Positions 2 through 60,000 of a stretch of DNA of 64,000 nucleotides are shown here, one piece after another. The stretch comes from a virus. Below the pieces are notes generated by a model. It had not been told where the DNA came from and made no database searches. It was given only the letters and a program-made list of their open reading frames with translations. Position 1 is the stretch's first letter; every line of letters begins with the position of its first letter. The translations under genes were made by a program, and so were the position numbers. Location of the stretch: the IMG/VR virus record IMGVR_UViG_3300030098_005194, positions 1 through 64,000 of that record; one strand, 5' to 3'.

Positions 2-721
2 ATGACAGCGAATACTGTTACCATAAATGCATCAACGACGAACGCCACCAGTGTCCAGAACACGCAACACGTAGCATCCCACATGTACCACGCATTCAAT
101 GCGGGTGCAGATGCCTGTGAATTGCAGGGAATGGCCCTAGTGAAAAACATGATACTTCGTGTACCCGAAGTTACGCAGACAGTTACCCGTGAGCAATTCA
201 ACGAATTGCTTGCGGAGATAGTGACCAAGGACAAAGACGGAAAGGGTCAGATTGCGTACCCGCAGGTAAATGGGAAGATGAGAACCTTCCGCAACAACCA
301 CCCAAATCTGGGCGGTCTTTCCTTTGGAAAGTGGGTCAGGGATAATGTCCCTAACGGGAAGAATTGGGCAGACAGTGACATCTCCAAGGAGATGGCAACT
401 TACGCCCTGCACCTTGGGGTGGCTCCGGCCACTCCAACCCCTGCGGAAGTCCCTGCACCAACCCTTTCGGGTATTGAGCAAATGATTGCTGATGTGGAAC
501 TACCACCTGCGCCATCTCTGGAGAGCTGGACAGTCAAGGCGGGCGATGAAGTGAGGGAGTACGAGCTTCCTTCCGAGCCCGTAGCCGTAGCCGAGGAAGC
601 TTCGATACTGATGATTAAAGCCGACCTTGTGAAAGCGGGCGTCTACACAGTCGCCCAAGCTGACAGGACTGCTGAGAAGAGGCTCAGAAAGGTTCACGGA
701 ATTATATTCGGCACAAACTGA
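2..721 (+). CDS. hypothetical protein (239 aa; could extend upstream of the window)
   Basis: Long ORF with a Pro/Ala/Thr-rich linker; no recognisable family motif; sits at the window edge. Confidence 0.7.
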   Translation: MTANTVTINASTTNATSVQNTQHVASHMYHAFNAGADACELQGMALVKNMILRVPEVTQTVTREQFNELLAEIVTKDKDGKGQIAYPQVNGKMRTFRNNHPNLGGLSFGKWVRDNVPNGKNWADSDISKEMATYALHLGVAPATPTPAEVPAPTLSGIEQMIADVELPPAPSLESWTVKAGDEVREYELPSEPVAVAEEASILMIKADLVKAGVYTVAQADRTAEKRLRKVHGIIFGTN

Positions 722-1060
722 GCGGGTAACCGCAATCAGTAGCCCAGACATTCGTAACCCCAGTGATGGCGTGAAGCCGGAGGGGGAGTACACAAATACA
801 ACTCATGTCAATTCCGGGGCGGGGGGTTACTCTTCCCCCCGTCCCACCTTCCGCTCATCGGGGCGGGGGTGTTGGCGTTCTACCCGTCCCACCCCCGCCC
901 GCACACTCTCGTTTCTTCCCCGTCCTGCCGAAGCACCGTGCAACCTCGTTGCACAACCATACGGGTGGGAAAAACCACAGGCTTGCGCAGAGAGCGCACG
1001 ATTCGGGCCTGTTGATTATCAATTGTGTGGGCATCGTTGGGGTGTTGTGTCACCCACCCA
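722..1060 (+). ncRNA. candidate structured RNA or structured 3' UTR containing a K-turn
   Basis: GCGG-GTAA-CCGC hairpin (722-733); K-turn pattern CCCC-AGT-GA-TGGC-GTGAA-GCCG-GA-GGGG (758-785); 11-bp stems 816-826/835-845 and 861-871/890-900; GTGCAAC/GTTGCAC (938-954); ACAGGCT/GGCCTGT (977-1012). Confidence 0.5.
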
Positions 1061-1061
1061 C

Positions 1062-1260
1062 CGCATTACGCACACTCGCACACGCCCCCTTACGCGTACG
1101 CATAGGTACGCATAGACGCTTACGCAACGTGGGGCTTGCATCAATACAATCAATTCAATTATTATACATACACAATAATAATGTGTGTGTAATATATGTG
1201 TGTAGGGGCATTGTTGTACACGTTCATGTTTCAAACGTCTATACGAATAATGTGAATAAC
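1062..1260. repeat. TACGCA short repeats followed by an AT-rich tract (origin- or terminus-like)
   Basis: TACGCA at 1067, 1097, 1107 and 1121; GTACGCATAG in tandem at 1096-1115; AT-rich from about 1141 to 1260. Confidence 0.45.
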
Positions 1261-1286
1261 GGGAATAATCACCCAAGGAGCTTTTT

Positions 1287-1303
1287 CTTTAAGTATACCT
1301 AGA
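1287..1303 (+). promoter_or_regulatory. conserved viral promoter motif, copy 1
   Basis: CTTTAAGTATACCTAGA about 15 nt before ATG 1318; matches copies at 5800, 8801 and 22868. Confidence 0.65.
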
Positions 1304-1317
1304 GTCGAAGACTATTG

Positions 1318-2034
1318 ATGACTGTCAAGTTAATCGAAGATACTGAACCTAACCTAGAACGCCCTGTTAATATCGTATATACTACGTGCAATAACTGCGG
1401 AGCAATCTCAAGCATTGCTGACCTTAGCTCACCCACAGACTACGACAATGCGTACGCATTCACAACCCTAGCTTGCTGTGGAAGAACACCTAACTCATGT
1501 ATGAGTTTGCACAATGAAATACCCGATGGCTCCGACTTGTTGTACTACGCATTTAGAGATGAGTATTGGAATGGCTTTCGCACCGCTAAACATAGCAACT
1601 CTCCCTTGCTAAAGAGTGTGATGGGCAGAGCTTGGTCGAATTACACAGTTGCGAAAACGATTGCACAATACCTTGTGGACAATGACATGCAAGATGGTGT
1701 GGACATCTACTTCAACTGTATGAAAGTCAGTCCGATTGCGTTGGTGTTGTATGACAATGACAAGATAGACCTTGAGCAACTGACTATGCATCCTATGGGA
1801 GAGATGCACGGTAGTCCAGAGAACAGGATGGGAGTTTACGTACACTTTGGTACGCAAATGGAAGTGCCAGTGATGGAAGGTCTTCCCATCGCATGGAGAT
1901 TCAACGACATCATGTGGGAGATTGACGATGGACATTGGGAGTTTGTGAATCCCTACGTTGGATGCTTCTACCAAGAGGACGACGTTGGGCAGTACGATAG
2001 TTACGGGAGTTGGATAGATGACAATACACAGTGA
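1318..2034 (+). CDS. hypothetical protein with N-terminal Cys cluster
   Basis: ORF directly after the promoter motif; CNNC and CC residues. Confidence 0.75.
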   Translation: MTVKLIEDTEPNLERPVNIVYTTCNNCGAISSIADLSSPTDYDNAYAFTTLACCGRTPNSCMSLHNEIPDGSDLLYYAFRDEYWNGFRTAKHSNSPLLKSVMGRAWSNYTVAKTIAQYLVDNDMQDGVDIYFNCMKVSPIALVLYDNDKIDLEQLTMHPMGEMHGSPENRMGVYVHFGTQMEVPVMEGLPIAWRFNDIMWEIDDGHWEFVNPYVGCFYQEDDVGQYDSYGSWIDDNTQ

Positions 2035-2583: not shown

Positions 2584-2810
2584 AAGATTACGACGAAGCA
2601 ACATACGAAATTGAATACGGCCCTAAGAGGTTGTACACAGTGATAGAGTGGACTGATGGCAAGAGCCTGTTCCTCGATGGGGATAGTGAGATTATCTTCA
2701 TGGAGGAATACATGGAGGCTAGGCAGTTGAGAGACTGGGAACACATGGAAAGCCTGTTCGGTATAGGCAGTGAGTATCACGGAATTGCAGATGGAGTTGA
2801 TGAAGAATGA
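2580..2810 (+). CDS. hypothetical protein
   Basis: ATGA overlaps with both neighbours. Confidence 0.75.
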   Translation: MKDYDEATYEIEYGPKRLYTVIEWTDGKSLFLDGDSEIIFMEEYMEARQLRDWEHMESLFGIGSEYHGIADGVDEE

Positions 2811-3436
2811 GAGAAGTAGAAAAGATGAGTATGGAAGAATTGCAGAGAGAAGTCAGACGGTTGCGTAACCAAGCTACGAGTTGCGACGAGAAATGGTTCA
2901 ACCCTAACTGGTGGTGGAACGACATTGATTGTGATGAGGCTTTGGACAAGTACATCAACGAGGATTACGGAACACCTGCTAGGGAATTGTTGAAGGAGTT
3001 GTACGAAGGCATCCTATCGCTTGGTGATTTCAGAAGCGGAGTGAACGATTGCAGAGTAACTACGCTGGACACAGTGACCAAGCACCATCCGTCCTACGAT
3101 GAGTTGCTTGAGAACGAGGGTGGTTGCAGAACGACCTTCACTGTGAACACCGGCATGATTGCGCAGAACTCCTTCGGCACTGTTGCACAGGAGGATGGTG
3201 TGGAATTGAAAATGAACATCAGTGTTGGGCCAATGAAGGAAGGTGGTCTGCAACGTGGTTGCTTTGAGTATTACGACAAAGATTGTGAGTGGTACGCAGA
3301 AGGTGGACTGTGGTTTGAGAACAGGGAGCTTGTGGACTTCGATGGCTCTTACTCGTTGTCCAAGTACATAGCTGACTGGCTGATTGAGCAGGGGTTCAAG
3401 GTTTCCCCTATCTATTGGGGAGGGAAGAAAGAATGA
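2807..3436 (+). CDS. hypothetical protein
   Basis: ATGA-coupled 209-aa ORF. Confidence 0.75.
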   Translation: MREVEKMSMEELQREVRRLRNQATSCDEKWFNPNWWWNDIDCDEALDKYINEDYGTPARELLKELYEGILSLGDFRSGVNDCRVTTLDTVTKHHPSYDELLENEGGCRTTFTVNTGMIAQNSFGTVAQEDGVELKMNISVGPMKEGGLQRGCFEYYDKDCEWYAEGGLWFENRELVDFDGSYSLSKYIADWLIEQGFKVSPIYWGGKKE

Positions 3437-17719: not shown

Positions 17720-17988
17720 AGAACAAGTATAGATACAACAAATGTGTCTCTTGTAAGAAGAGAAGGAACCTAGTCTGGGACCCTGACCACAAGAGATGCT
17801 ACGATTGCTGGATGAAATACAGAGAGGAGCAGAAGAGATGTGAAGTGGAGACATGTGATAATGTTCTTGAGGATGGGGAAGGCACTACTATCTATCTCTT
17901 CAGCGATTGGGGTGATGTTGTTTGTGATGACTGCAATGAACAGTACAAGAACGGCGAATGGATACCAGACGTGGATGTGAGACATTGA
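17716..17988 (+). CDS. small double Zn-finger protein
   Basis: CVSC..CYDC and CEVETC..CDDC; ATGA overlap start. Confidence 0.7.
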   Translation: MKNKYRYNKCVSCKKRRNLVWDPDHKRCYDCWMKYREEQKRCEVETCDNVLEDGEGTTIYLFSDWGDVVCDDCNEQYKNGEWIPDVDVRH

Positions 17989-18113
17989 TAGCTAATTGTG
18001 GTGTGTGTGGTAAGAAAGCAAAAATTTGGACCACTCTTGATGATTATGATAAGAACGGCAGACACACACTAAGCACATTAGTATGTAAGGATTGTACATT
18101 GGAGGCGTTATGA
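17985..18113 (+). CDS. 42-aa Zn-finger microprotein (TTG start; not in the ORF track)
   Basis: MIANCGVCGKKAKIWTTLDDYDKNGRHTLSTLVCKDCTLEAL; TTGA and ATGA overlaps at its two ends. Confidence 0.65.
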   Translation: MIANCGVCGKKAKIWTTLDDYDKNGRHTLSTLVCKDCTLEAL

Positions 18114-18385
18114 TGAAGGAGATTTGGAGAACAGTTAGCATGGAAAGAAAGTGGAAGGACGGCAAGGGACATGTCGTTTTGAGTGTGCAACCATACTCAG
18201 GCAGAGTCTGGGTGGACATGAGAATGCACAACATGCATAGAGAGGAGGGCCCAACGCATACGAGAAATGGCTTCCGACTCTCTATAGAGCAAGCAGAGGA
18301 AATGGTGAATGCCATGCAAGTGGCAATCACGAAAGGAAAAGAGGAAAGGGAAAGAAATGAAAGGAAACGAGAGGAAAGCAGCTAG
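18110..18385 (+). CDS. PC4/YdbC-like ssDNA-binding protein
   Basis: VVLSVQPYSGRVWVDMR...PTHTRNGFRLSIEQ matches the PC4 pattern (Y.G...vDiR....PT.KG..L); GGAGG SD. Confidence 0.7.
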   Translation: MMKEIWRTVSMERKWKDGKGHVVLSVQPYSGRVWVDMRMHNMHREEGPTHTRNGFRLSIEQAEEMVNAMQVAITKGKEERERNERKREESS

Positions 18386-18626
18386 CATACCACACGCTGA
18401 GTATGAGATACTGAGGGTGCTGAAGAGCGAAGTTGATTTGAGTGAGCTAAAAGAAAGAATGACGAAGATACAGGTTAAGAACGAGAGGGACAAGAAGAGA
18501 CAAGTAACTCTCAATAGGAGGTTTGACAAGGCCGCTGAGAATCTGTGGGTTGTATTTAACAACATGATGGAGATTCGTAGAAAGAAGCTCCCAGAGAGTC
18601 ATCCCAGATACGAGGCGAGCGAATGA
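18357..18626 (+). CDS. hypothetical basic helical protein
   Basis: Overlapping coupled ORF. Confidence 0.7.
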   Translation: MKGNERKAASIPHAEYEILRVLKSEVDLSELKERMTKIQVKNERDKKRQVTLNRRFDKAAENLWVVFNNMMEIRRKKLPESHPRYEASE

Positions 18627-22038: not shown

Positions 22039-22490
22039 GCAACATAAACAATATCCATGAGTGGGAGAGTAGAAGACGCGATGAGCAAATGGAGTCTTGG
22101 CTTGAGTATGTATGGAATAACAAGGACAAGCACAAGAGCCCACAGACGGAGGCTTCCCTCAAAGTAGGAAACATGACTAGACACAACATCTCCGGTGGAA
22201 AGAAGAGTCTAAGGCACAATTACATTGACGGTATTTTCTCAAAAAAGTCAACTAAAGCCGTGGTAAATACTTGGACTTTGTACAATCATTGGAGACATGA
22301 TGCTGGACTATGTAGCACAAGATGTAAGTTCTGTGCTAAGGAAGCAGGGATGACTGTCTTGGAATATGCCGATGAATACACCATATCAAATGGAAAAAGA
22401 ATTTCAGGTCACAGAAACAGATGTTATGTCAGTTATGAGGAAGCAGTTCCAGTCATGCATGAGTTCCTTGATTACATGGAGGGTCATTGA
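22035..22490 (+). CDS. hypothetical protein with Cys cluster
   Basis: TTGA overlap start inferred; HDAGLCSTRCKFC. Confidence 0.6.
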   Translation: MSNINNIHEWESRRRDEQMESWLEYVWNNKDKHKSPQTEASLKVGNMTRHNISGGKKSLRHNYIDGIFSKKSTKAVVNTWTLYNHWRHDAGLCSTRCKFCAKEAGMTVLEYADEYTISNGKRISGHRNRCYVSYEEAVPVMHEFLDYMEGH

Positions 22491-46693: not shown

Positions 46694-48087
46694 TAGAACA
46701 CCAAAAACCTCTCATCTGCTTCTTTTTTACCGAGTCCAATCGTTTTTGCACTACCGCCTATACTAACTCTGTTTGCGTTACGGCCTATTAGAAGAGGTGT
46801 ACCGCTAACATCTGTCACAGTGAGGAGAAGGGTGGTCTTTATATCAATTTCATCAAAGAAACCGTAGTCAACTTGCTTTATTTGCTCATTTAGGTCATCG
46901 CTGGTTATCTCTTCAGCTATCGCTTCGTCCTCAAACACGGACCTGATTGCTGTATCAGCACCTGATTCTAGTGTAAGGAAAGTAAAGTCGCTTAGTTGTG
47001 AGGCTAACATGTGGCTAGCTGACATGACGACATATTTTCTGTTGCCGTAACTAACAATCTCTCCCGGTCTTATGAACCAAGATTTTGGATGGCCTTTTGT
47101 TTCCATTCTCGTTGCTAGGAGTCTGTTTGCCTTGAGCATCTGTCTTGCTACGGACCTTGACTCCTGTTCTGACATTATAGAATTATCAAAGTGCGGCATG
47201 GGTTCCTCTGCAATTTCGATATTGAACCTGCCTTGTTGAGTAGCGTCATTGAGAGTAACAGATGAATTGTCATTCAAGGCGATTTGACGACCGACCACTG
47301 TAACTCTGTTTGCACTGTCATCCACTGTGTTGGTATTTTCACTGTCCGTTCTCAAACTCGCTGATAGGAAATGTGGTTTTCTAGAATAGTTGAAAGGTAT
47401 GAACAATAAGTTGCCATGCATGTCGTAATCTAAGATTCTATTATCCCTTCTTCCCAAAGTCGTGAGAGCTGTCATCAGGCTGGCATTGTTGAAATTATGA
47501 GCGAAGAAAGTCTTGCTGTGTTTTTGCCTCTGTGTTGTTGCGTTAGCCACGGACAAAGGCTCGCCTATTGAAAAAGACGTTACTGTGCCATCTAGCTCCT
47601 TGCCGATTTCCAAAGCCAAATCAGTTGTTCTAAATCCTACGTTTATTGGCTGACCCATTTTCACCTCATCAGAAAAACCAAATGTTGACAGATTTTCATT
47701 TTTCATATTTGGCAAATGAACTCTTATTTTTTTATCCAAAACCTCTATTTTTTGTCTTAAAAGACGTTTTTTATTATCATTAGCATCATACAAAATTTCT
47801 GATGAAGAGTCATTTCCATATGGCGTAAAAATATTTTCTTCAAAGGTATGACCCGGAGTTTTTGTGTGTGACACAAGCAAGGAGGACTCCTCTTCCTCTA
47901 TCCTGTAACTGCCTTCTTTTGATACTCTGTAGGAAGTTGTGGAAATTGTGACTTTTGGTTTTTCAGATTGTTGGGACTCGTATTTTCCGTAGTGCAGAGC
48001 GTTGTCAACAAAGACTGGTTTTCTGATATCTACCATAACCTCAGTTAGCGATTCGGAAAAAGCACCCTTGGTCGATTGTATCCTCAT
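46693..48087 (-). CDS. tail/baseplate hub-like protein (tentative)
   Basis: Position in the tail operon; C-terminal IRPGEIVSY..KYVV.SASH pattern. Confidence 0.5.
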   Translation of the reverse strand: MRIQSTKGAFSESLTEVMVDIRKPVFVDNALHYGKYESQQSEKPKVTISTTSYRVSKEGSYRIEEEESSLLVSHTKTPGHTFEENIFTPYGNDSSSEILYDANDNKKRLLRQKIEVLDKKIRVHLPNMKNENLSTFGFSDEVKMGQPINVGFRTTDLALEIGKELDGTVTSFSIGEPLSVANATTQRQKHSKTFFAHNFNNASLMTALTTLGRRDNRILDYDMHGNLLFIPFNYSRKPHFLSASLRTDSENTNTVDDSANRVTVVGRQIALNDNSSVTLNDATQQGRFNIEIAEEPMPHFDNSIMSEQESRSVARQMLKANRLLATRMETKGHPKSWFIRPGEIVSYGNRKYVVMSASHMLASQLSDFTFLTLESGADTAIRSVFEDEAIAEEITSDDLNEQIKQVDYGFFDEIDIKTTLLLTVTDVSGTPLLIGRNANRVSIGGSAKTIGLGKKEADERFLVF

Positions 48088-51000
48088 GGTGAGTCCCCGC
48101 TATGGTCATCAGTTCCGAATGTTACATCACCTTTGTGGCCTTTCGGATGGAGAGTTTGTGAAAATCTTGGTTTTACCGAGAAGTCACCAGCTCTCACTGA
48201 ATCAGCCCTGTGATGCTGTAAGGTGTTCTCAGACACCAATAATCTACCAACACCAGTTGTCAAATCGGTGTTGTCGAAGGAAGACTGCTCGCTTGTTTGT
48301 ATTGTAGGGCCCTGTGAGCTTACAGTCCCGTAATCACTCGTGAACAAGACAACTGGGTAGTAAGGGCCGTTGGCATTCGGATTTGATGAGCCCACATAGA
48401 AAGAAGAGCTAGCTGGATTGTCCACTTCGTAATTGAAGTAACCGTACTTGCCACCAGATGTGAAATTCAGATAGCCTAGTGTGTATTGAGGTGAGCTAGA
48501 GTGTAAATTGTCATTCAGTCTGTACATTTCCACATGTCTGTTGTCCAATTGTCTTATCGGTCTAATTAGGAATTTTACTGACTTATCGGTTCTGTTGTTT
48601 GGTTTTGTTGTGAGTTTTCTAGTGGCGTTTTGATATGGATTGGATGATTTTGTAGGGGAGGCAATGTTGTTCTTGCCCCAACCAGTGTCATCAAAAGAAC
48701 CAGCGTAACTTCTGACTTCCAAGATGTAGGAGCCACCATACGGTCTGAATGAGTTTGTGTGTGAGAATCTCAAAATTCCAGAGGCTAACGAGCCATCAGA
48801 CTGCCTAGAGAAAGACGTTGGTATGTCTATATTAGCTGCAGTTCTGGCATCTCTTTGTAGTGATGCACTCAAAGACACTCTCTGTCCCATGTTACGGTCA
48901 GTGTGGAGGCTGTGTGCCTCTGTTGTGATGGCTACGTGATTCTCCTCCAATCCGTCATACAAGGGGGCGTCTATGCCTATTCTTGGGCTGGTCCTGCTTA
49001 TTGGCTCCAGATGCTTGCTAGAGCCTACTATGGTGTCTGTTCTGCCTCCCACGTTAGCCTCTGGCTTGAGAAGCCCATCCTCTGAGATTGATAGCTTTGA
49101 GCTTATGCCACGCTTTATCTCATCGGCTTGCAGTACATCGTTACGGGGTCTTGTGAAACCAGCGCCAAGAGTTGGCTCACTAGTGTTGGAACTGAGGACT
49201 ACACCAGTTTTTTCATCTGTAACTGAGACATCAGTGAAAATGCATTCGTTGAAGGATGTGGGGTATCTAGAACCCCTCCCGTTGCCCATGCAACCCACCC
49301 TGAGTGAATGTACAGGGGAGAATACGTCCACTAGGTCATTGTTACTACCGTTTAGATTGGAGTCGTTTTGTGTGCCTCCAAATCTAGGAACGGTAAAATC
49401 TGCTGTAACACTTACATTTCCACTGGAATCAATTACGTTTTTGACATTGAAAAGTGGTTTACCACCATTCCAGATTCTATCGAACGGGGTATTGCTACCC
49501 ATCTTGTACGCATTGCCGCAGTCCCATGCTGGTCTGATACCGAATCCACGCACTGGGGCACGCCTTACGTCCTCTCCACGCTCATTACCCCACCAATCTA
49601 CCAAATAGTATTGAGATGCCTCAGATAGCTCTGTAATGCCCTTTGGCTCACTATCGCCCCACCAGTCCCTTTGCACAGTTATAGACTCCGACGTATCAGT
49701 GGCAGGGTTTCTAAGCGTGCGTAACGGTGTACCGAAAGGCCGTGTCATCCTTCTTCCTTGTGCGTAACGCACCTGATGGCCAGCTATGTCGTTGTTCAGC
49801 ATACCAGTGAAATTCGTGCTTCTCTCCAGTATGCCCGTGTAAGTGAGTGGTATGCTTCCATGGCTCTCCATCTGGATTATTGGGCCAGAATCGTAGTTTG
49901 TGGTGTTAAAAGCGCTACCAGAGGCGGTTCCCTCATAGACAGCGCGAGCTGGGAGAAGACCCCATCTGGGTCTGTTGTAGGCTTGCCGTACAGCGATACG
50001 GTATCCAAAGGCTCTTCTCTTTGTATCTGAGGTGGACGAGCTGATTCCGCTAGAAACAGAGTAACTACCGTCATCGTCGTCATCTACCCAATTTAAGCCC
50101 ATTTGGTCATAATCACCCGGTTTGCTCCAAGAAGCAGAAGCTATTGTGTATTCCTCCAAACTACTGGCTTGGGGGCCGCCCCTGCTACCACAAGGCCAGT
50201 ATCTGTTGTATAGGACACTTCCAAACTCGCTACCAGATGCACCTCCAGCATCATTGTTAGCATCAACAGTATGTACACCACCCGTTGCATCAGTAGTTCT
50301 TTGTGCTTTTACTTTGAGTGAAAAAGGACCTAGACTCATTGCATATGTAGCAGAGTGATAATGTATAGTTTCATAATGCTCAGGTAGTGCATTATACCTG
50401 TCAGCATCAACAGGTTCTGCATTCCAAGCACGACTAGTGCTTTCTGAAAATATAGTATATGGCCTACCTAGATTCTCATGCCATAAACATAGGAATGCAT
50501 CTGGTGGATTTAGGTTGTTAGTATCTCTAGTACCTAATTTAATATCATCTAAATTAGTTGCGAATATGCTTTTTGTCCTATCCTTAGCATAAGTATTCTC
50601 AGATATTGTATTGTATGTGCTTGAAAGTGTAATCTCAGCACCGTCAAATATATTGTTTAGGAAGTTGGTACTAGTTGCAGTGCTTGGTAAGGTGAATATA
50701 GTTGGTATATTTATCTCAGATGCACTAAATCCACTACGTGATGTATATGGTGCAGAATACGTTTTTCCGTCCTTTCCGGTGTATTGTAGGTGCTTTCCGA
50801 ATCTAGGTAGACTAGGGAAACTACTTGCATTGTCAACTGTTATTTTTCTCGTACTTGTATTGAATGATTGTACTATACATGTAGGTATATTAGATGTATT
50901 TTGAAGTATATGTGAGTATATGTCGGGGTATATTGTAGGGTATCCTTGCATAGTTAGTGTATTTCCTATACTTCCATATGTACTTCTAGAATGTGAATAG

Positions 51001-54000
51001 TAATTATGAGGCGCACTTTGTGCTAATCCTCTGAAGCCCTCATCATTTGATAAGTCATCACTAGCTATATCTGCGAATAAAACACTCCACCAAGGTACAT
51101 TCAAAGTAACTCCGGGTGTTGAATCTGAAAACATTGGTGAGTAAGGGAATCCCCTTCTTGAAAAGGAAGGACTCTCATTCAAATTTACACCATATGGGTT
51201 GTACAAAAGTAGTTTTGGTATATTTGTAAATTGACTTCCGAAATCAGGATTGATGTCCAGCATCATTTCGTTTATCATTACTTCACACCCTCTGACATCG
51301 GCTTCAGTAGAGCGAGCCAATACTAGTGTCATAGCACCAGTGTTGGATTCATCATGCTTTATTCCGATGACCGTATTGACTTGTTGAGCTGTTAATGCAT
51401 AGGTTGTGTCATCTGCGCCGCCTAGTTGATTGCTGAAAAGATTGGGCTGTATGACAATTTGGTACGCCCCCACTTCAGCCGGGTCTGGGAAGTGATTTGC
51501 TAGCGTGTAGCTGGAGGCAGCCTGTAACGTGATACTGTGTCCACCTGCCTTGTTTATCGTACCAGCATCCCCCTGACTACCCAAAACCCCGTAACCGTCC
51601 CATTTTACAGCAGTTTCAAACATTAATGTGAAAGCACCACCGTGTAAGTCCGAAGGACCGCTAGGTGCAGCGTTTATCGCACTGAAGTTTATTTCTGCTT
51701 CCATTGGGTTTATGCTGTTTCCTATCGATAAGTCATCTTTTGTTGGTACGTTCTCAGCGCTGGCTTTTATTGCGTCCGACAAAATTTTTCCATCCATTGT
51801 CTGTCTTAGCATGTTTTGCTCGGCTCTGTGTTTTTTGTACAGGGACTGGTACACTGGGTGAGCCCAATGGCCCGGTAGCATGGGTTGGGTTGCATTCACG
51901 TAATGATGGCCCATTCTTGGATATGGCATGGGTGTCATTACGGGTTTTGTGTATCTGTCGTAAGCGTTTGTCACACTAGTGATGTACTCAGTATGTGCCA
52001 TATCAGGGGAGTTTCCGCTTACTTCAGCATGGTCACGTAGTCTTCTTGCTGCGAAGAATCTGTTGCTTCCTGCGGGTATGTAAAAAGATGGCACTAGAAG
52101 CAATGTGTCTGACGTAGCAGCTAGAGTTGTGAAATTTGCATCAGCCTTTACACCCGTGAAAGTGCTACCAGAAATGCCTGTATAGGTAGCTACACCGCTT
52201 TCTCCGGTAGTGGGATTGTACAATCTCATGTACCTTCTATCATCATTTTCTTCCCTTGAGCCAAAGTCTCTGGTTTCTTTGAATGTCAAAGTACCATTAG
52301 TCACGCTACCCCCAGTAGTAGCTGCGCTTAACTCAAAGGAAGTGCTGTTCGATATGCTGGATATTATTGCGCCTGTTGGTATGCCTGTACCAGAAACTTG
52401 CATTCCTATAACTAGGGAGGCAGTGCTATCTATCGATACACTGGTAGAGTTATTGTAATCACATGTGGCGTCCGTGAAAGTTCTCTTCCAGACATGTACG
52501 TTTGGAGCGGCGTTTACAGTGACAACTCCACTGGAGAAAGAAACGAATGTCAGAGTTTGTGTCTCTACGTCATTTGCAGCAGAGTTGGAACCAGTAGTGT
52601 ACACGTTTGGATACCTGTGTGTGCTACTATGTCCCATCTTCGTAACATGGAAGAAAAGCGCCCTATCGTGCAATTCATACGAGTTTTTGAGAGTAGCAAC
52701 ATCCAAACCGCCTACCTTTGATTTTTCGTTAACTGGGTCGTAATGCTCCCATCCAACCTCCTCGTAAGTGGGATGTCCCTGCCCAATGCCGTATGTGGTA
52801 TCATAGAAGCTACTCAGCCTAGTTGAGTTATCACCGGGGTGTTGCATGCCACCAGAACCAAAAGTCTCGTTTTGATACGCCTGTATGGGGTCAAAACCAG
52901 AACGAACCACTAAGTTGCCCGGTATGCTATCCGGATTTGGCAGTTGTACCGCTAGTCTTGGTTTGAGTCCAGAATTAGCTAAAGCAGGTCCCGTCTTATT
53001 TTCTGTTACATTACTGAAGACACCAAGACCAGCATCGAACACGGTCGTTGTTTCTTGTGAAGTAAATTGACTGAGATTGAAAGTTCTGATGATTGTACCA
53101 AGCGGGCTTCCTCCTTCTATGACATGCTCTTGCCCAGCATCGTCAACAACCAAAATTTCCTCAAATTGAATTTCTTCATTTGGAATTTGTAAAATATTTT
53201 TTACATTGAAAATATTTTTTTCTGAGAGCTGTGGTTGGGAAATTTCTTGTGCTTGTAACACTGGCATCATAGCAGAATTGGTTGTTTCAAACGAAAAACG
53301 CACATTTCCATAAATTTTTTCTCCAGTCAAATATTTTGTATTGCTTTTTACACGGGTCACGAAAGGCACTGCACCAAGCCCTCTAGCATCCAAAGTAGGT
53401 AGACTTAGGTTACCTCCATCCATTCTTTTCCAAACAATATTTTCTACAGAAAAATTCTTTGCTGCAAATTTTTTCTGAGTTTGGAAACCATTTACATCAG
53501 ACAACCAATACTGATTTGAGAAGCCTGTTTCAGCCGTGTAAGCAGTGCCAGAATATTTGTCTTCAGCCACATTTCTTTCTGCTTCACCAGATTGTAGATT
53601 GAATGAACCGGGAGAGAAATCCAAGTCGTGTATCAAATCACCAGTCTTTGCTCTGTCTGGCGTGGCGTTGGAAAGTTTGGTATCTGAAGAAGGAGCGCTA
53701 TGCATGTACTTGTAAGCAGGAGTCCCTCCAGTTGGGAACAAGTCATCAATCCAATTGGCATCTATGGTATCCACTGGAACTGTTGTGCCATCGGCAATCA
53801 GAGCCTCTACGTTTGGCCCAGCATTTGCTGGCGCTGTGTATCTATCCTGACCGTGAATCCTATCGTCCCATATCGTAGTGCCAGAATCAGAGATGTCCTC
53901 CTCCTGTCTCAAATACAGCCAATCCCCAACAGCGCTTGTACCGTCCCTGTCTCTTTTTGCCACAAGTGCTAGCTCGCTTTCATAAGAAACAACTAGGAAA

Positions 54001-57000
54001 GCAGATGTGTAGACTCCTTGTGATTTTTGTAGCTCGTCGGGTAAAATGCTAGTGTTTGATGTATTTGCGTGCGACATCACATAATTTGTTGGGTCGGAAA
54101 AGAGATTGTTCGGTGCAGCGTCTTCTGCATCTTTGTAGTTGTAACTTCTACCGTATGACGAAAATGTGTTATTAGAATAGATACTATCAATGTATCCTTT
54201 TTGATTTGTAGCACTTTGCCCACCGTCTATGACTGGTGTGCTTTCGGGACTTCCGAACAGTGGTGCAATGAGAGGGAGCTGTCCATACGTATTCATCACA
54301 GTGCCAGCCGACCCATATGGAGAGAAATTCAGGAAGGGGTGGTACGCCCCTAAACCAGCAGCATAACCAGTGGTATTCGTAGTGGTGGTATTTTTTGTGA
54401 CACTGGTTGTAATCTTGAGACTGTTGAGATAGGAGTACCTTTCGCCATGCCATCCAACAGCTCCCACTGGTTTTGTTCTATCTACAGCATCCACTATGCC
54501 TGAGAAGTGAACTTGTGTCATATGCTCACGACCACTACCACTCTCGTTGTCGTATCTAATGACCCCGCTCTTGGACCACACATAGAGGTTCTTTGATGAG
54601 GAAGGTGTGACGCCACCGTTGTCGTGCAAGAAATTTGCGTCAGGAGATGAGGCGTTTTCTTTTCTGTTGGGGGCAAGATAGAATCTTGCTTTGAAATCCG
54701 TTCCACTCAATATTATCTGCTTCATGAAATAACATGCATATGAAGCAGCATTGGTTGTGGAACTATTATCGATGTCACCCCTAATCCAACCTGAAGCTGG
54801 TAGGTTCTCAAGAAGGTCCCTATTGCTTGTGGCAACGCTTTCTATGTAGTACGGATGACTGCTGTTTTGGTATGTACCTGTTGCTGCGCCTATGTCTATC
54901 CAGCCGTATCTGTCTTGTCTCATTGCATTCCCCATGGAAGGCATATGTGTGCCTCCTATTGCCTTCAAAGCGCCTTTTCCGGGGAATGTGTTTATTGCTG
55001 CACCTAGTACGGTGGCAAGCTCCTCTCCATTCTGACAACGTGTAGCATCTACTGCTATGTATTCCATATCGGTGTCTTTGTCGGCTATCGTCGTACTACC
55101 AGTGACAATGCTCTTCAACATCGCTCCAGCCACACGGAAAGCAGTTGGATTGATTTTGCTATATCCACTAACAGATATTCTAGCGTCATTTTTTGGTGGG
55201 TTGAAAGTCAGTTGGTCATCTAACCAAGAACCACCGGGATGGAAGCCACCGTCCATGTGGAACACGGTGTCTGCTGCCATTGCTATACCGAAGCCAATGA
55301 AGGGAGTATGCCTGAGTGGTTGTGTTCTGTCATCAAAAGTAGACTCATCCCAAATCATCTGGCCGTACATTCTACCGTGTGAGGGCCTCTGTTTGTATGT
55401 ACGTCCCAAGGGATAGCCAGCGGGTGATTCCCAGTTCACCATAGCACGCCAATGATAAGCAGCATTTGCTAGATACTCTGTTTTATCGGGTGGCAGGTAA
55501 TCCCTATCCTCGTTGTTTATGTGATTGTGGAAGGCTTTAGTCATCAAAGGAACCTTTGAGAATGAGTTACCAGTGGTAATCACACGACCCGGATGTGGTT
55601 CTTTTGGATTCGATACTGATGTCTCCTCCCTTATTGGGAATGCCTGACCGGGACCAAAAACAAGGTAAGTCGTCTTATTGTCCACTCCATTCACATGGTC
55701 GTCATACCTTGCTGTCGGATGAGGGAACCTCAATACCAAAGGCACTGCTTTTGCCTTGACTACACCAGCGGCATAAGTCGTACCGCCCATATCCAAATCA
55801 GTGCTTAACACGTTATCCTTGTTGAAAAATGGAGGTAGAGCGCTCGCTCTGTGCTGATTGAGCAGAGCTGTACCGGGGAAGAAAGCTAATATGGCATTGC
55901 AGTCCAACATTGCGAAGCTAGTGGATATCTCGTTGGCGTTTTGAATCCCCGCTGTACCAGTGGGCCCGTTAGCGTAAGGGTGGGTGTAGAACTGCGAGTA
56001 GTCATTGTTGCTACCATCATTCACATCCATGACAACGCCACTGAATCCGCCACCGAAGAATAGTGGTACGCTGTGGTCGGGACTAGACTTACCGCCTCTG
56101 AAGAGGACTATTGGTTCTGAGAAGACGCTTCCTATGGAGCGTATGCCAGCGAATTTTCTCTCTAAGTGCAGATGTAAAAACTCGTCTTGTGCGGGTCTTG
56201 TACTGGGCCAATTTACCTCAGTATCAGAAAACCATTTCATACTATTGTTAGAAGCGAAACTAGCGCTGTCATTCACACTTTCAACCACAGCGTACTTCTC
56301 ATTATCGAGATAGACGACTGCTTTCTGACCTATCGAACGAGAAGCATCGCCACTGACAAAACTGCTAGCTGGTATTAGGAAATGATATGCGTTTGTGACA
56401 GTTTTGAATTGATTATTAGTGGCCCAATTTGAATCAGTAAACTCGCTTCTGTCAATTTGTAGAATAGGATTGTCTATCTTTGGGATTATGTGGTCGCCTG
56501 ATACGGAAGTGTAGGACTCACCAGTGAGATTCTTTCTCCATGCTACAGTAGAAACTGGGTTATTATCGCTATCTACGAACACAGGTGTGGCTGTGTTGGT
56601 GTTTGGACCGACTCCCTTCGTTCTTATTTCCAACAGAGTTTTTGGTATGTAACCACAATCTATTCTCATACCAGCGTCTATCTCAGCATCCGTGAATGCA
56701 TCATTAGTACCAAAGTCCCACACACCATCAGCCGTCAACTCAGCTTTCTGTATCTCACCAAACTCCAGATGTGCCGCTTGTATCCCCAAGTCTGGTGCGA
56801 CTACGGCACTAAATAGCTTTGAAAGTGGCGTGACGTTCCTCTCTGTATTGAAAGCAACAATCTGTATGGCATCGGGTGTAACGCCCCACTCACCGAAGGT
56901 TCTACCATCAGCGGCGTACATGGAAGTGCAATCGAAGAAAGTAACGCTATTCGCATCTTCCTTGTTTATTGCAGCCGCCGTAACAGCGCTCATCAACTCA

Positions 57001-60000
57001 TCAGTAACTAAGCAACTCCAGTTGATGGTTGGAGATACTAGCTTAATATCAGTTCCAGATGTAGCTGGCGCATTTTGTACGTTGTAGAAGGTATTTCCAT
57101 CCCTTCTCTCATATGATACCACCCTTCCAACTTCGTCATCTTGGGAAGTTACGGCATCGGTCATTTGTAACACACCATTCTCAAGTGGGAAGCCGAGATA
57201 CCCTAAGATGTCAGGATGGGGATGAGTGAAAGTAAGAGTACCGTTAGTTACTGAACCGCCTGTAGTAGATGCACTCAACTCAAAAGTAGTGGCATTCGTT
57301 ATGCTAGATACAGTAGCACCAGTGGGTATACCTGTTCCCGACACAGCCATGCCCGGTACTAGAAATGCGGTACTATCCATGGTTATGGTCGGGTCATTGT
57401 TGTAATCGCACGTAGCATCAGTGAAGCGGTATGGTGCGCTCAAAGTAGCAGTGAAACTGGTTGATGCGAAAGCCAAAGACATCCTCACTGCAATCTCAGG
57501 CGCTGGCTTCGCATTCCAACGAGCGCCTCTCCAACTCTGGTCAGTGAATGAGCTAACTAACCTACCAGTGGCGTCACCAGAACCCATCATCGAGGTACCA
57601 ATCGTAAAACCACCTTGAGAGGAGGACCTGTCATCGAAGAAGACGCATATCTCATCTTGTAGGGTATCAGGAGTCTTGGTGTTGGTATTGGCGAAGACCT
57701 GTCCCCTTCTGCTGTAGATGAATCTGATACCATGCTCACCACCCAGATGGTCCCTAAGTCTGAAGCCGTAGAGCTGTCCTTTCCCTATGTTCTCCTCGTC
57801 AAGCATATTGGCTGATATGTGTGAAGAGTATGTTCTTGTTGTGCTTGAGCTACCATACCTAGCGTTGTAAGTCGATTCGCCATTCTTGCCAAAGCCCCAA
57901 GTTCCGGCCACTGGAGCCCAACCGGGAACACCAGTTGCCACCAGACCACCGAAGTTTATTCTTGATATCGCTCTCTTCCCAATCCTCAGACCGTTGACCA
58001 GAGTTGAGGTGCTGCCCTCCAAGTCAAAGGAGTCCCTGTTGATGCTGTTGTGATTCTTACCGCTTATGACATCAGAGATAGACATGAAATCGGTCTTTTC
58101 CTCCGTACCAATGTCAGCTACTGATACTACGTCTTCTCCACTCTCATCGCTGTCAATGTACTGCTTGAGCGTGGTGATTGGGGCGAATGGCCTACCGTTC
58201 TTGTCAAGAGGCATGGGAGCAGGATGCATGTTCTCACCCTCCCTCTCGTCTGGAAGGGCCCAGAAATTCCTCCACCTACCACCGTGTCCTATCAGGAACT
58301 CTGGTTTGTACGTAGTCTGAGATGTGCTGTTGTCCAGCCAGACGCAGAAGTTTCTACCTGATGCGCCGGGAACTGTGCTGTGAATCACTATGGTGTGACC
58401 GATATTACCATCAGCATCCTCAACTTCTCTTCCCAAGTGTGCCCTTAGATAGCCCATGTGAGTGCCAGAGTCTGTGCTTGTGAAAGCTTGGTTGACATCC
58501 CACCACACAGCAGGGTCGTGCGCTGAACCACCACCGACTATGGCTGTTGAAGTAACATTCAAACCAGCATCAAAAACTTCTACAGTCTTACCCATTCTAG
58601 CATTCAAAGCACCATACTGATTGATTTTTCTGACTATTTCAGTGACACCTGAAAGCACATCAACAACGCCTTCCTTCTCTGCTATCTCACCTGCGTCTAT
58701 TGTGAGTCTTCTGACGAAATCCATGTCAGTCCATTGTGGTAGGTGTTTGATGCCTCTTAGCCCACTGCTCTGGTTAGCCTCTGCGTGACTGCTTAAGTCT
58801 AGTGAGCTAGAGCGAATGCCCTTGAGACAGAGGAAGGCTGGTATGACACGAGTGCCATCTGGTGTATCGAAGAACGTGGATGGGTCACGTAGTGATTTGC
58901 CTGATACCTCTCTGAACTTAACCAACGAGTCAATAAAGCTCCTAGCGCTTTTTCTTGATAGGGAATGCCTGTCGATGGCTCTGTTCAGCGTAGTTACACT
59001 TTCCTGTGTTCTAGGAGGCGTGCTGAATGAGTAGGATTGATTCGATGCTGCACCATTTATGCTGAAGCCTACGTGAACGTGGTGACCATGTGCCTTACCA
59101 AACAATCTGGAGTAATTATTTATTCTAGCGTTGTTAGTTCTAGTAAATGTCAGTGTCGTATTCGTGTTAGTAGCTGTGGTATCATGACTTAAAGTGAACA
59201 CGGTAGAACTATTGATAGCACTTATTGTTGCACCGCTAGGAATACCAGTGCCAGAAACTCCCATTCCTATTGATAAAAGTGATGTGCTGTCCATCGTAAT
59301 ATGTCTAACACTAGTCGTTGAACCATCACTAAGACCGCTAGTGTGATTAGTATCACAAGTGGCGTCAGTAAAAACGTCAGAATAGACAGTTTGACCTGTG
59401 AGGTCATCGCTCTGCTTGTTGGCTAAGTCATGTGCATATGCGCTCTCTATGAACTTGGATTGCTGTGTTGAGCGAATGTACCTGTTTTGAGAGGGGAAGC
59501 CATTAGCTACGTCTATCTGTGTGGTCCAAGCATATGGAGCGGCACCGTTAGTAGCTGGGAGGCTAACAGCCAAGTCCGTCATAGTCGTGTCAGTGTTTTC
59601 TACTACATGTCTGTTCCAACCTATGTGAGTAGCATCAGCCGATGACTGAACCTGCATGTGAATGTCTTGGAATGCAATGAACTCCCTGTCATGTACAACA
59701 TCATAGAGCAAGACCCTAGCATGTCCCTCATTGGCTAGGTATGGGTCTACGTATGCCACAGTGGGTGCTAGAGAAGCAGATAGACCAAGAGACACATAGT
59801 TCTCCTCAATCGTTCTGTTGACGTGTTGAGCGTAGTTTCTGGCAGTCTCAAGGGCGTTAGCACCTATCAGGAAGTTCTCCAATGGTATGCTGTCTCTGGG
59901 GTTGCTAGCGGCTAAAGTTCCCTCCCCACCATTGAACTCGCTCCAGACCTCACCCTCGTTGTAGACACCCCTGCTCTTGGCAAAGAGTCCCTCAACGGCA

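What the first reader, a model, noticed from the sequence alone, without database searches (positions are those of the whole stretch)
722..1060. Densely structured ~340-nt non-coding block with a canonical kink-turn
Seen: right after the ORF1 stop come a GNRA-capped hairpin and a K-turn pattern (C-stem CCCC/GGGG, 3-nt AGU bulge, tandem G-A/A-G, NC stem UGGC/GCCG; 758-785). These are followed by two related 11-bp GC stems with GGGCGGGGG arms, a three-way junction closed by CCCGT/ACGGG (919-965), and a stem enclosing TGCGC-AGAGA-GCGCA (977-1012). The G-U pairs and K-turn polarity work on the + strand. Known: K-turns bind archaeal L7Ae. Inference: a novel viral ncRNA or regulatory 3' UTR that recruits or sequesters host L7Ae.
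Basis: partly seen in the sequence, partly recalled or inferred. Interest (0 to 1): 0.75.

Follow-up and report, generated by a model that had tools for sequence, protein, structure and literature searches.

The report
Conserved intergenic control block, K-turn-like hairpin
A 590-base non-coding spacer between two early genes of a marine archaeal tailed virus is strongly conserved and holds a textbook kink-turn hairpin and one or two very stable GC hairpins, but it looks more like a composite 3'-UTR/terminator plus DNA-level control region than like one folded 340-nt RNA, and binding of the host protein L7Ae remains untested.

Summary
The window is the first 64 kb of a 102-kb marine archaeal tailed virus, magrovirus group A-like. 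The block is non-coding and under strong purifying selection: 2-9% variable columns, against 39% at neighbouring third codon positions. "Densely structured" holds only partly. Fold significance comes from the two GC hairpins, and one of them is a 54-nt indel missing in most relatives. The common short form folds at chance level (z about -1.4), and 921-1080 is also at chance. Five relatives at 85-90% identity show no compensatory change. The K-turn hairpin (758-785) fits the consensus and is invariant, but such a pattern is expected about 1.7 times per genome by chance. The block lies between two copies of one archaeal promoter. Its 3' half shares motifs with the presumably untranscribed region upstream of ORF1. 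A distant relative has the same promoter-gene-spacer-promoter layout. Best reading, confidence about 0.45: an ORF1 3' UTR with K-turn and GC-clamp hairpins (722-917), followed by DNA-level operators or a possible origin (919-1314). L7Ae recruitment stays possible but unshown. No Rfam or cellular homologue was found.

The parts
2..721 (+). ORF1 (239 aa), a real gene of unknown function with its own leaderless-type promoter. The block begins at its stop codon (719-721).
   Evidence: 37 homologues down to 58% identity, with conserved segments and alternative C-terminal modules. No Pfam or PHROG hit. The AF2 model has no significant fold match.
722..733 (+). GNRA-capped 4-bp hairpin GCGG-GUAA-CCGC directly after the stop codon
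   Evidence: Sequence. In L013 the loop changes GUAA to GUGA, still GNRA; one pair becomes U.G and one pair is lost.
758..785 (+). K-turn-consensus hairpin: CCCC / AGU bulge / GA / UGGC-GUGAA-GCCG / GA / GGGG. It can be extended by GUA/UAC at 754-756/789-791.
   Evidence: Sequence. It is the local MFE in isolation. 747-781 is invariant, and 745-796 has 1 variable column of 51 plus a G-run length change. The pattern is at chance frequency genome-wide.
797..852 (+). 54-55-nt indel that carries GC hairpin 1 (816-826/835-845). It is a diverged tandem copy of hairpin 2.
   Evidence: Direct repeat D1 and inverted repeat I8. Present in the window, L010, L012 and run X7. Absent in L011, L013, L014 and the run X20 contig.
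861..900 (+). GC hairpin 2: 11-bp perfect stem GGGCGGGGGUG/CACCCCCGCCC with an inner 4-bp stem. A pyrimidine/T-rich stretch CUCUCGUUUCUUCC follows.
   Evidence: strongest perfect hairpin in 102 kb. C899U gives G.U in 3 of 5 sequences. L013 has a 4-nt deletion that leaves a 9-bp stem. Loop positions 872 and 881 vary.
919..965 (+). Candidate three-way junction: CCCGU/ACGGG closing UGC-CGAA-GCA and GUGCAAC-CUC-GUUGCAC. The last of these is also a perfect DNA palindrome.
   Evidence: all pairs are invariant except G927A, which breaks a pair in L012 and X20. The triloop varies at 946 and 947. The local fold z-score is at chance.
948..972 (.). GTTGCACAAC + CCATACGGGTGGGAAA, motifs that recur upstream of the ORF1 promoter
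   Evidence: blastn-short against L010:2258-2690 gives 15/16 and 10/10 matches. Both copies are conserved in relatives. Unique in the genome.
977..1012 (+). Stem ACAGGC/GCCUGU enclosing the palindrome TGCGC-AGAGA-GCGCA
   Evidence: C982U gives U.G in L011. 983-1014 is invariant.
1063..1126 (.). TTACGC/TACGCA iterons, including tandem GTACGCATAG x2 (1096-1115). This is the least conserved part of the block.
   Evidence: 24% of columns are variable.
1141..1204 (.). AT-rich stretch (23-40% GC) with short repeats. It is a possible unwinding element or promoter-upstream region.
   Evidence: Highly conserved: 8% variable over 1141-1285.
1282..1290 (+). TTTTTCTTT, the first oligo-T run after the ORF1 stop. 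Candidate archaeal terminator for the ORF1 transcript.
   Evidence: Sequence. Invariant in 5 sequences. Absent from the copy of the promoter region upstream of ORF1. Its function is inferred.
1286..1312 (+). Promoter element TCTTTAAGTATACCTAGAGTCGAAGAC, with a TATA-like TTTAAGTATA about 20 nt before the ORF2 start. A second identical copy lies just upstream of ORF1.
   Evidence: 27/27 identity with L010:2655-2681. The variable tetranucleotide co-varies between the two copies within each genome.
1315..2034 (+). ORF2 (239 aa; CxxC...CC motif), the downstream early gene
   Evidence: Homologues at 76-87% identity.

Best explanation
The block is a composite, selectively maintained intergenic control region between two early genes, ORF1 and ORF2, that carry the same leaderless-type archaeal promoter. 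It is not one folded 340-nt RNA. Part 1 (722 to about 917) is transcribed as the 3' UTR of ORF1. It carries an invariant K-turn-consensus hairpin and one GC-clamp hairpin, two in some strains. These hairpins most likely define or protect the mRNA 3' end and insulate the ORF2 promoter from read-through. Part 2 (919-1314) works mainly as DNA. It holds palindromes (GTGCAAC-N3-GTTGCAC, TGCGC-N5-GCGCA), motifs shared with the region upstream of the ORF1 promoter, TACGCA iterons, an AT-rich stretch, a T-run and the TATA element. Together these form the binding platform that controls the ORF2 promoter, and possibly replication initiation. What is shown: the block is non-coding, conserved, has duplicated promoters, shares motifs with the upstream region, has a variable hairpin copy number and shows no covariation. 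What is inferred: transcription through the block, the terminator or insulator role, and DNA-level binding. If the K-turn RNA is made, published K-turn rules say L7Ae would bind it. Whether the virus uses that binding is open.
For: The virus is an archaeal tailed virus of magrovirus group A type. Its MCP is 34% identical to HCTV-1/HVTV-1. It encodes PolB, an SNF2 helicase, RFC and a thermosome subunit, it comes from marine runs, and these features match PMC5434244. Variable columns are 0.02 for 745-796, 0.09 for 919-1060 and 0.08 for 1141-1285, against 0.19 at ORF2 codon positions 1+2 and 0.39 at position 3. An identical 27-nt promoter element lies before ORF1 and ORF2, with concerted variants. 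The region upstream of ORF1 is equally conserved (94%) and shares CCATACGG[GT]TGGGAAA, GTTGCACAAC, TGCGCAA and TACGCA with the block. A distant relative, G004, has the same layout: an iteron region, promoter, gene, about 875 nt of spacer that starts with two strong hairpins plus a T7 run and continues with palindromes and repeats, then the same promoter again. No T-run of 4 or more occurs between the ORF1 stop and 1282. Fold significance is confined to the GC hairpins. Hairpin 1 is an indel. Only 3 of 18 substitutions fall in the named stems, where 45% would be expected (binomial p=0.011). Three of the one-sided stem changes are C-to-U opposite G.
Against: There are no transcript data of any kind. 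The hairpin-2 tail (UUUCUU) is a weak archaeal terminator. The motifs shared with the upstream region lie at different distances from the TATA box (about 65 nt against about 325 nt), so a common operator geometry is not shown. The K-turn segment is the most conserved stretch and has no DNA-level repeat to explain that, which fits an RNA-level role better. Substitutions avoiding stems, and G.U-compatible changes, would also fit a larger functional RNA. Segment-wise mosaicism exists in these genomes: 2807-3436 is 92-96% identical even at third positions. Part of the conservation could therefore reflect recent exchange.
Confidence: 0.45

Rival explanations
1. The block, or at least 745-1060, is a functional structured RNA, either a processed ncRNA or a regulatory 3' UTR. 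Its K-turn recruits or sequesters host L7Ae, for example to nucleate an RNP or to titrate L7Ae away from host rRNA, sRNP or RNase P assembly.
For: The K-turn pattern fits the full consensus and exists only on the + strand. It has -1b:-1n = C:G and 3n = G, the two features reported to give folding in metal ions alone, and every K-turn tested folds with L7Ae (PMC6298567). 747-781 is invariant, making this the most conserved part of the block. The + strand folds better than the - strand in the window. One-sided changes at 723, 899 and 982 keep pairing only as G.U on the + strand. Loop positions vary while stems do not. The virus has no L7Ae gene of its own, so any binding would involve the host protein.
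Against: There are zero compensatory changes in 64 pairs or in the RNAalifold consensus. The minus-strand consensus energy is as good. The short form is not more stable than shuffles. The K-turn pattern frequency equals chance expectation. In the thermodynamic ensemble of longer transcripts the K-turn hairpin is out-competed, with pair probability 0.03 or less. There is no upstream promoter conserved among relatives. No homologue was found in four more distant relatives. The 3' half shares motifs with presumably untranscribed DNA.
Confidence: 0.22
2. The whole block acts as DNA and is the replication origin of the virus, or a part of it. The GC inverted repeats extrude or bind an initiator, the TACGCA iterons and palindromes are initiator sites, and 1141-1204 is the unwinding element.
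For: Its elements occur once per genome: the strongest hairpin in 102 kb and motifs found only here. It combines iterons with an AT-rich stretch. It lies at the head of the replication-gene block, next to the point of divergent transcription. It is highly conserved without coding. Analogous repeat-rich spacers occur in G004.
Against: No Orc1/Cdc6-type initiator or recognisable ORB box was identified, although not every ORF was scanned. The iterons are the least conserved part. GC skew follows gene orientation and does not locate an origin. The C899T change weakens the DNA palindrome but is neutral in RNA. The G-quadruplex motif on the minus strand (883-900) is lost in 3 of 5 relatives.
Confidence: 0.2
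3. The block has no specific function. It is a GC-rich spacer whose hairpins and K-turn pattern are chance features, and it looks conserved only because of recent recombination among strains.
For: The K-turn is at chance frequency. Most of the block folds at chance level. Mosaic high-identity segments exist elsewhere.
Against: Conservation starts exactly at the ORF1 stop, where two relatives carry unrelated ORF1 3' ends. It holds on both sides against 39-60% variable third positions. Substitutions avoid stems. Motifs are shared and conserved in a second region.
Confidence: 0.08
4. The block encodes a protein: ORF 771-1115 or 805-1302 on the + strand, or 855-1034, 880-1053 or 1019-1276 on the - strand.
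For: Open frames of 57-165 codons exist.
Against: The ATG at 805 lies in the 54-nt indel. A 1-nt indel at 782, a 4-nt deletion at 896-899 and a 1-nt deletion at 970 shift the frames. The translations are low-complexity, all changes are nonsynonymous, and the 85-aa minus ORF is truncated in L012.
Confidence: 0.02

Closest known systems
K-turn stem-loops bound by L7Ae in the 5' UTRs of archaeal l7ae mRNAs (Daume et al. 2017, PMC5539422; Huang, Ashraf and Lilley 2019, PMC6298567)
   Same: A short mRNA-borne hairpin with a 3-nt bulge followed by tandem G.A/A.G pairs, with the terminal loop on the NC helix. It sits in an untranslated region of an archaeal-type transcript.
   Different: Those elements overlap the ribosome-binding site and are predicted not to fold without protein, because they lack 3n=G and -1b:-1n=C:G. 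The viral hairpin lies 37 nt after a stop codon, has GC-only stems and carries both pro-folding features. It therefore looks like a constitutive K-turn, not a switch.
Box C/D K-turn (C box RUGAUGA with D box CUGA)
   Same: The bulged strand AGUGAUGG matches RUGAUGA at 6 of 7 positions. The overall shape equals the minimal box C/D K-turn hairpins used as L7Ae binders (my own knowledge).
   Different: There is no CUGA D box (CGGA instead), no C'/D' pair, no guide regions and no Rfam hit. 3b:3n is U.G instead of U.U.
Promoter-gene-terminator modules of early or accessory regions in tailed phages and archaeal viruses
   Same: A repeated promoter before successive small genes, stable hairpins after the stop codon, and a conserved spacer with operators. 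The distant relative G004 has a hairpin plus T7 terminator at the same place.
   Different: The spacer is unusually long (593 nt), is more conserved than the flanking genes, and is GC-rich (60-70% in a 45% genome).
Archaeal replication origins (ORB repeats flanking an AT-rich unwinding element)
   Same: Iterons, G-rich strings, inverted repeats and an AT-rich stretch in one conserved intergenic region near replication genes.
   Different: No ORB consensus and no adjacent orc1/cdc6 gene were found. The repeats are direct and not inverted around the AT-rich part.

Membership tests
Kink-turn (K-turn) RNA motif | Watson-Crick C helix, 3-nt bulge, tandem sheared G.A/A.G, then NC helix, on one strand polarity | tested here: met
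   758-785: CCCC-AGU-GA-UGGC ... GCCG-GA-GGGG. My pattern scan finds it as the only GC-stemmed instance.
Kink-turn (K-turn) RNA motif | Sequence features that favour folding: -1b:-1n = C:G; 3b:3n not Watson-Crick, with 3n = G | tested here: met
   C761:G782 and U767.G779, judged against the rules quoted from PMC6298567.
Kink-turn (K-turn) RNA motif | Occurrence above chance, and conservation or covariation of the stems | tested here: inconclusive
   1.7 expected per genome against 2 seen. Invariant in 5 relatives, so no covariation is possible. Absent from analogous spacers of distant relatives.
Kink-turn (K-turn) RNA motif | Kinked 3-D geometry with A-minor contacts; binding by L7Ae | not testable with these tools
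   Needs probing, FRET or a gel shift with Poseidoniales L7Ae.
Box C/D sRNA | C (RUGAUGA) and D (CUGA) boxes at the ends, internal C'/D' boxes, 10-12-nt guides | tested here: not met
   No CUGA partner and no second box pair by reading. No Rfam match even at E<=10.
H/ACA sRNA | Lower stem, pseudouridylation pocket, upper stem with K-turn/K-loop, ACA box about 14 nt from the pocket | tested here: not met
   ACA follows the C stem by only 4-6 nt, and no lower stem or pocket can be drawn. No Rfam match.
Any curated RNA family (RNase P, SRP, introns, riboswitches, large phage ncRNAs) | Covariance-model match | tested here: not met
   0 hits at gathering score in 64 kb. Only noise (22 bits or less) at E<=10 in 600-1400. 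No tRNA or tmRNA.
Structured ncRNA in general | Fold more stable than shuffled sequence, and compensatory base changes | tested here: inconclusive
   z=-4.1 in the window but -0.7 to -1.4 in the short forms. 0 compensatory changes in 64 pairs, 3 G.U-compatible changes, 2 breaks. Divergence is too low for power.
Archaeal replication origin | AT-rich unwinding element flanked by repeated initiator boxes, next to an initiator gene | tested here: inconclusive
   An AT-rich stretch and iterons are present. No ORB consensus and no Orc1/Cdc6 hit among the ORFs scanned. Skew is uninformative.
Magrovirus (group A-like) genome | About 100-kb tailed virus, MCP about 33% identical to haloarchaeal siphoviruses, archaeal replisome genes, thermosome and SNF2 helicase, marine origin | tested here: met
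   compared with PMC5434244. No tree was built.

The most novel reading that the evidence does not exclude
A marine archaeal virus places a constitutively folding K-turn in the 3' UTR of an immediate-early transcript to capture host L7Ae. This would either build a viral RNP on the flanking GC-clamped RNA or drain L7Ae from host ribosome, sRNP or RNase P assembly. It would be the first viral K-turn/L7Ae hijack described in archaea.
Probability: 0.12. Interest if true: 0.75.

Novelty: new member of a known kind. Interest (0 to 1): 0.35.

Why it matters
Magroviruses are among the most abundant archaeal viruses in the surface ocean, and nothing is known about how their early genes are controlled or where they start replication. 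This block, the twin promoter and the shared upstream motifs give a concrete, conserved candidate control region to test. If the invariant K-turn really engages L7Ae, it would show a virus exploiting a universal archaeal RNA-binding protein. I found no paper linking L7Ae or K-turns with archaeal viruses. On present evidence that remains a minority possibility. The ordinary reading, a terminator or 3' UTR plus operators or an origin, is more likely.

Tried and rejected
- **Rfam:** no hits at gathering score or at E<=10, only noise. ARAGORN found no tRNA or tmRNA.
- **Coding:** rejected on both strands.
- **Expression:** no RNA holder was listed. The metatranscriptome run X21, from the same sample as a DNA holder, laid no contig on 600-1400. 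This says nothing on expression.
- **The look-up of encoding contigs:** Contigs of the more diverged ORF1 and ORF2 homologues could therefore not be fetched.
- **IMG/VR scans that found nothing:** ORF2, ORF1, the exact K-turn 28-mer, the promoter pattern and the ORF1 family alignment.
- **More distant relatives G001-G004:** no homologue of the block by blastn or nhmmer, by the covariance model R1 or by the K-turn scan.
- **Host-derived RNA:** BLAST of the block against 401 Thermoplasmatota genomes gave only short chance-level hits: 29 genomes at E<=0.05 per genome, scattered over the query. Two hits on the K-turn segment lie in coding DNA.
- **Phage collection:** no match.
- **Viral L7Ae gene:** none found.
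- **G-quadruplex on the minus strand (883-900):** real in the window but lost in 3 of 5 relatives.
- **Box C/D and H/ACA readings:** rejected by inspection.
- **Global long-range helices:** the 12-bp helix 757-768/1032-1043 in the single-sequence MFE is not kept in the RNAalifold consensus or in longer contexts.
- **GC skew:** follows gene orientation only.
- **Sigma-70 promoter and terminator scan:** not informative for an archaeal virus.
- **ORF1 structure:** moderate confidence but no fold match. There are weak PD-(D/E)XK and SAP-like hints below any threshold. The ORF2 model was too poor to use.
- **Protein atlas:** unreachable.

Full report
**What the window is.** The window is bases 1-64000 of a 102,396-bp IMG/VR virus record classed as linear and 97% complete. 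The record holds a leftward structural module with a major capsid protein, protease, portal and large terminase. It also holds a rightward replication module with family-B DNA polymerase, SNF2 helicase, RFC-like clamp loader, PD-(D/E)XK and ERCC4 nucleases, a thermosome-type chaperonin and a C5 methylase. The capsid protein is 34% identical to those of the haloarchaeal siphoviruses HCTV-1 and HVTV-1. The DNA occurs in marine metagenome runs from several studies. These traits match magrovirus group A as described in PMC5434244: about 100 kb, halovirus-like MCP at about 33% identity, thermosome and SNF2 helicase. The host is therefore probably a Poseidoniales (Marine Group II) archaeon. That is an inference, since no tree was built.

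**Observation.** The region from the ORF1 stop (719-721) to the ORF2 start (1315) is 593 nt, the longest gap at the head of the + strand block. It reaches 60-70% GC in a 45% GC genome. It is not coding. The ATG of ORF 805-1302 lies inside a 54-nt indel. A 1-nt G-run change (782), a 4-nt deletion (896-899, L013) and a 1-nt deletion (970, L012) shift all long frames. The translations are low-complexity, and every substitution in the minus-strand frames is nonsynonymous.

**Relatives and conservation.** Homologues of ORF2 led to five metagenome loci. L010 is the same virus and extends 2,686 nt upstream of window position 1. L011-L014 are 85-90% identical over 2 kb. The spacer is much more conserved than its neighbours:

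| Region | Fraction of variable alignment columns |
|---|---|
| 745-796 | 0.02 |
| 919-1060 | 0.09 |
| 1141-1285 | 0.08 |
| 849-918 | 0.15 |
| 1061-1140 | 0.24 |
| ORF2 codon positions 1+2 | 0.19 |
| ORF2 third positions | 0.39 |
| Last 170 nt of ORF1 | 0.51 |

Conservation begins exactly at the ORF1 stop. Upstream of that point, two relatives carry an unrelated ORF1 C-terminus. One caveat applies. These genomes are mosaics, and 2807-3436 is 90-96% identical even at third positions.

**Is it densely structured?** For 722-1060 the + strand folds with z=-4.1 and the - strand with z=-1.75. In 120-nt windows only 801-960 is significant, and 921-1080 gives z between -0.3 and -0.8. Hairpin 1 (816-845) is part of a 54-55-nt indel. 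It is present in the window, L010, L012 and run X7, and absent from L011, L013, L014 and a contig of run X20. The short form folds no better than shuffles: z of -0.7 to -1.4 on + and -0.4 to -0.6 on -. RNAalifold gives similar energies on both strands and no covariation.

The three one-sided changes are all C-to-U opposite G, so they keep pairing only as + strand RNA. Only 3 of 18 substitutions in 745-1012 fall in the named stems, which make up 45% of positions (binomial p=0.011). That fits a constraint on the inverted repeats. It does not separate RNA helices from DNA palindromes, because several of them are perfect palindromes: GTGCAAC/GTTGCAC, TGCGC/GCGCA and GGGCGGGGGTG/CACCCCCGCCC. Hairpin 2 is the strongest perfect hairpin in the whole 102-kb record.

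**The K-turn.** 758-785 reads CCCC-AGU-GA-UGGC-GUGAA-GCCG-GA-GGGG, and the motif exists only on the + strand. It has -1b:-1n = C:G and 3n = G. According to PMC6298567 these two features confer folding in metal ions alone, and every K-turn tested folds with L7Ae. The segment is invariant in all relatives, with 747-781 forming a 35-nt identical run. A K-turn hairpin pattern with 4-bp stems is nevertheless expected 1.7 times per 102 kb by chance, and 2 are seen. In the energy model the hairpin is the local optimum in isolation but is out-competed in longer transcripts; the model does not score G.A pairs. No similar hairpin occurs in the analogous spacers of distant relatives. It is not a box C/D or H/ACA RNA, and nothing in Rfam matches. 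The virus encodes no L7Ae homologue.

**Context that changes the reading.**
- A 27-nt element, TCTTTAAGTATACCTAGAGTCGAAGAC, has a TATA-like box about 20 nt before the start codon, which is typical of leaderless archaeal mRNAs (my own knowledge). It occurs immediately before both ORF2 and ORF1. Its variable tetranucleotide is the same in both copies within each genome, ACC(T) or GGA(T). The two copies therefore evolve in concert.
- Between the ORF1 stop and 1282 there is no T-run longer than 3. TTTTTCTTT at 1282-1290 abuts the ORF2 TATA box and is missing from the ORF1 copy. The block is thus very probably transcribed as the ORF1 3' UTR, which is an inference.
- The 430-nt region upstream of the ORF1 promoter (L010:2258-2687) lies between divergent genes and is presumably mostly untranscribed. 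It is as conserved as the block, at 94%. It shares CCATACGG[GT]TGGGAAA (15/16), GTTGCACAAC, TGCGCAA and TACGCA motifs with positions 948-1126 of the block, and these motifs are otherwise unique in the genome.
- A distant relative, G004, has a helicase 42% identical to this virus's. It shows the same layout with unrelated sequences: an iteron-rich divergent region, a promoter, a gene, and an 875-nt spacer that opens with two strong hairpins and a T7 run and continues with palindromes and repeats, followed by the same promoter again.

**Homologues elsewhere.** None were found in four more distant relatives by blastn, nhmmer or a covariance model of 855-1016. None were found in IMG/VR by pattern or flanking-protein scans. 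None were found in the phage collection. BLAST against 401 Thermoplasmatota genomes gave only chance-level short hits. The ORF1 family does have members down to 58% identity.

**Verdict.** The block is real, non-coding, single-copy and under selection. The best-supported reading, at about 0.45, is a composite. Part 1 is an ORF1 3' UTR with an invariant K-turn-type hairpin and one or two GC-clamp hairpins, acting as a 3'-end or insulator structure. Part 2 is a DNA-level control region for the second copy of the early promoter, possibly also serving replication. Three rivals remain: a true L7Ae-binding structured RNA (about 0.22), a purely DNA-level origin (about 0.20), and no specific function (about 0.08). 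Coding is excluded (about 0.02). The L7Ae idea is neither refuted nor supported beyond motif fit and invariance.

Noticed in passing
window 1286-1312 and L010:2655-2681: The same 27-nt promoter element precedes ORF1 and ORF2. Its variable tetranucleotide (ACCT or GGAT) matches between the two copies within each genome, which suggests gene conversion or co-selection. The IMG/VR contig starts right after the upstream copy, so the assembly probably broke at this repeat.
   Followed up: partly
L010:1-2686: The same virus in another assembly carries 2.7 kb upstream of window position 1 that megablast does not find in the 102-kb record. It holds leftward genes whose products start with MNAFESAWLSLLK, MTPFQDAWNLLK and MGSAFNTAWTVLK, the tag-like motif another first-reader note describes at the far end of the genome.
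   Followed up: partly
window 550-721 (ORF1 3' end); alignment A6: The ORF1 family has at least three unrelated C-terminal tails swapped onto a conserved body. The exchange point is just before the stop codon, where the conserved spacer begins.
   Followed up: partly
L027 (contig NZMJ01000138.1): A 21.8-kb contig with a chaperonin 100% identical to the virus's is filed in a MAG labelled Maricaulis sp. This is almost certainly a mis-binned piece of this virus.
   Followed up: no
window 48084-64000 and beyond (to 65177), minus strand: A single open frame of about 5,700 codons lies in the structural module.
   Followed up: no
window 883-900, minus strand: GGGCGGGGGTGGGACGGG is one of only two canonical G-quadruplex motifs in the 102-kb record. 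It overlaps the 3' arm of hairpin 2 but is lost through C899T in three of five relatives.
   Followed up: yes
window 17720-18622 and 22039-22486: Two further long stretches (903 and 448 nt) have no convincing + strand ORF in the replication block. They were not examined.
   Followed up: no
L007:956-1830 and G004:32690-33220: A distant relative has iterons (GTGCTATGG), perfect palindromes (CGAACATGTTCG x2) and GAATAAAGTGAATA repeats around a duplicated promoter. The last repeat resembles GAATAATGTGAATAA at window 1245-1259.
   Followed up: partly
window 1315-2034 (ORF2): The ORF2 product carries conserved cysteines (CNNC ... CCGRTPNSC) that suggest a zinc-binding domain. It has no family match, and the AlphaFold model was poor.
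   Followed up: partly
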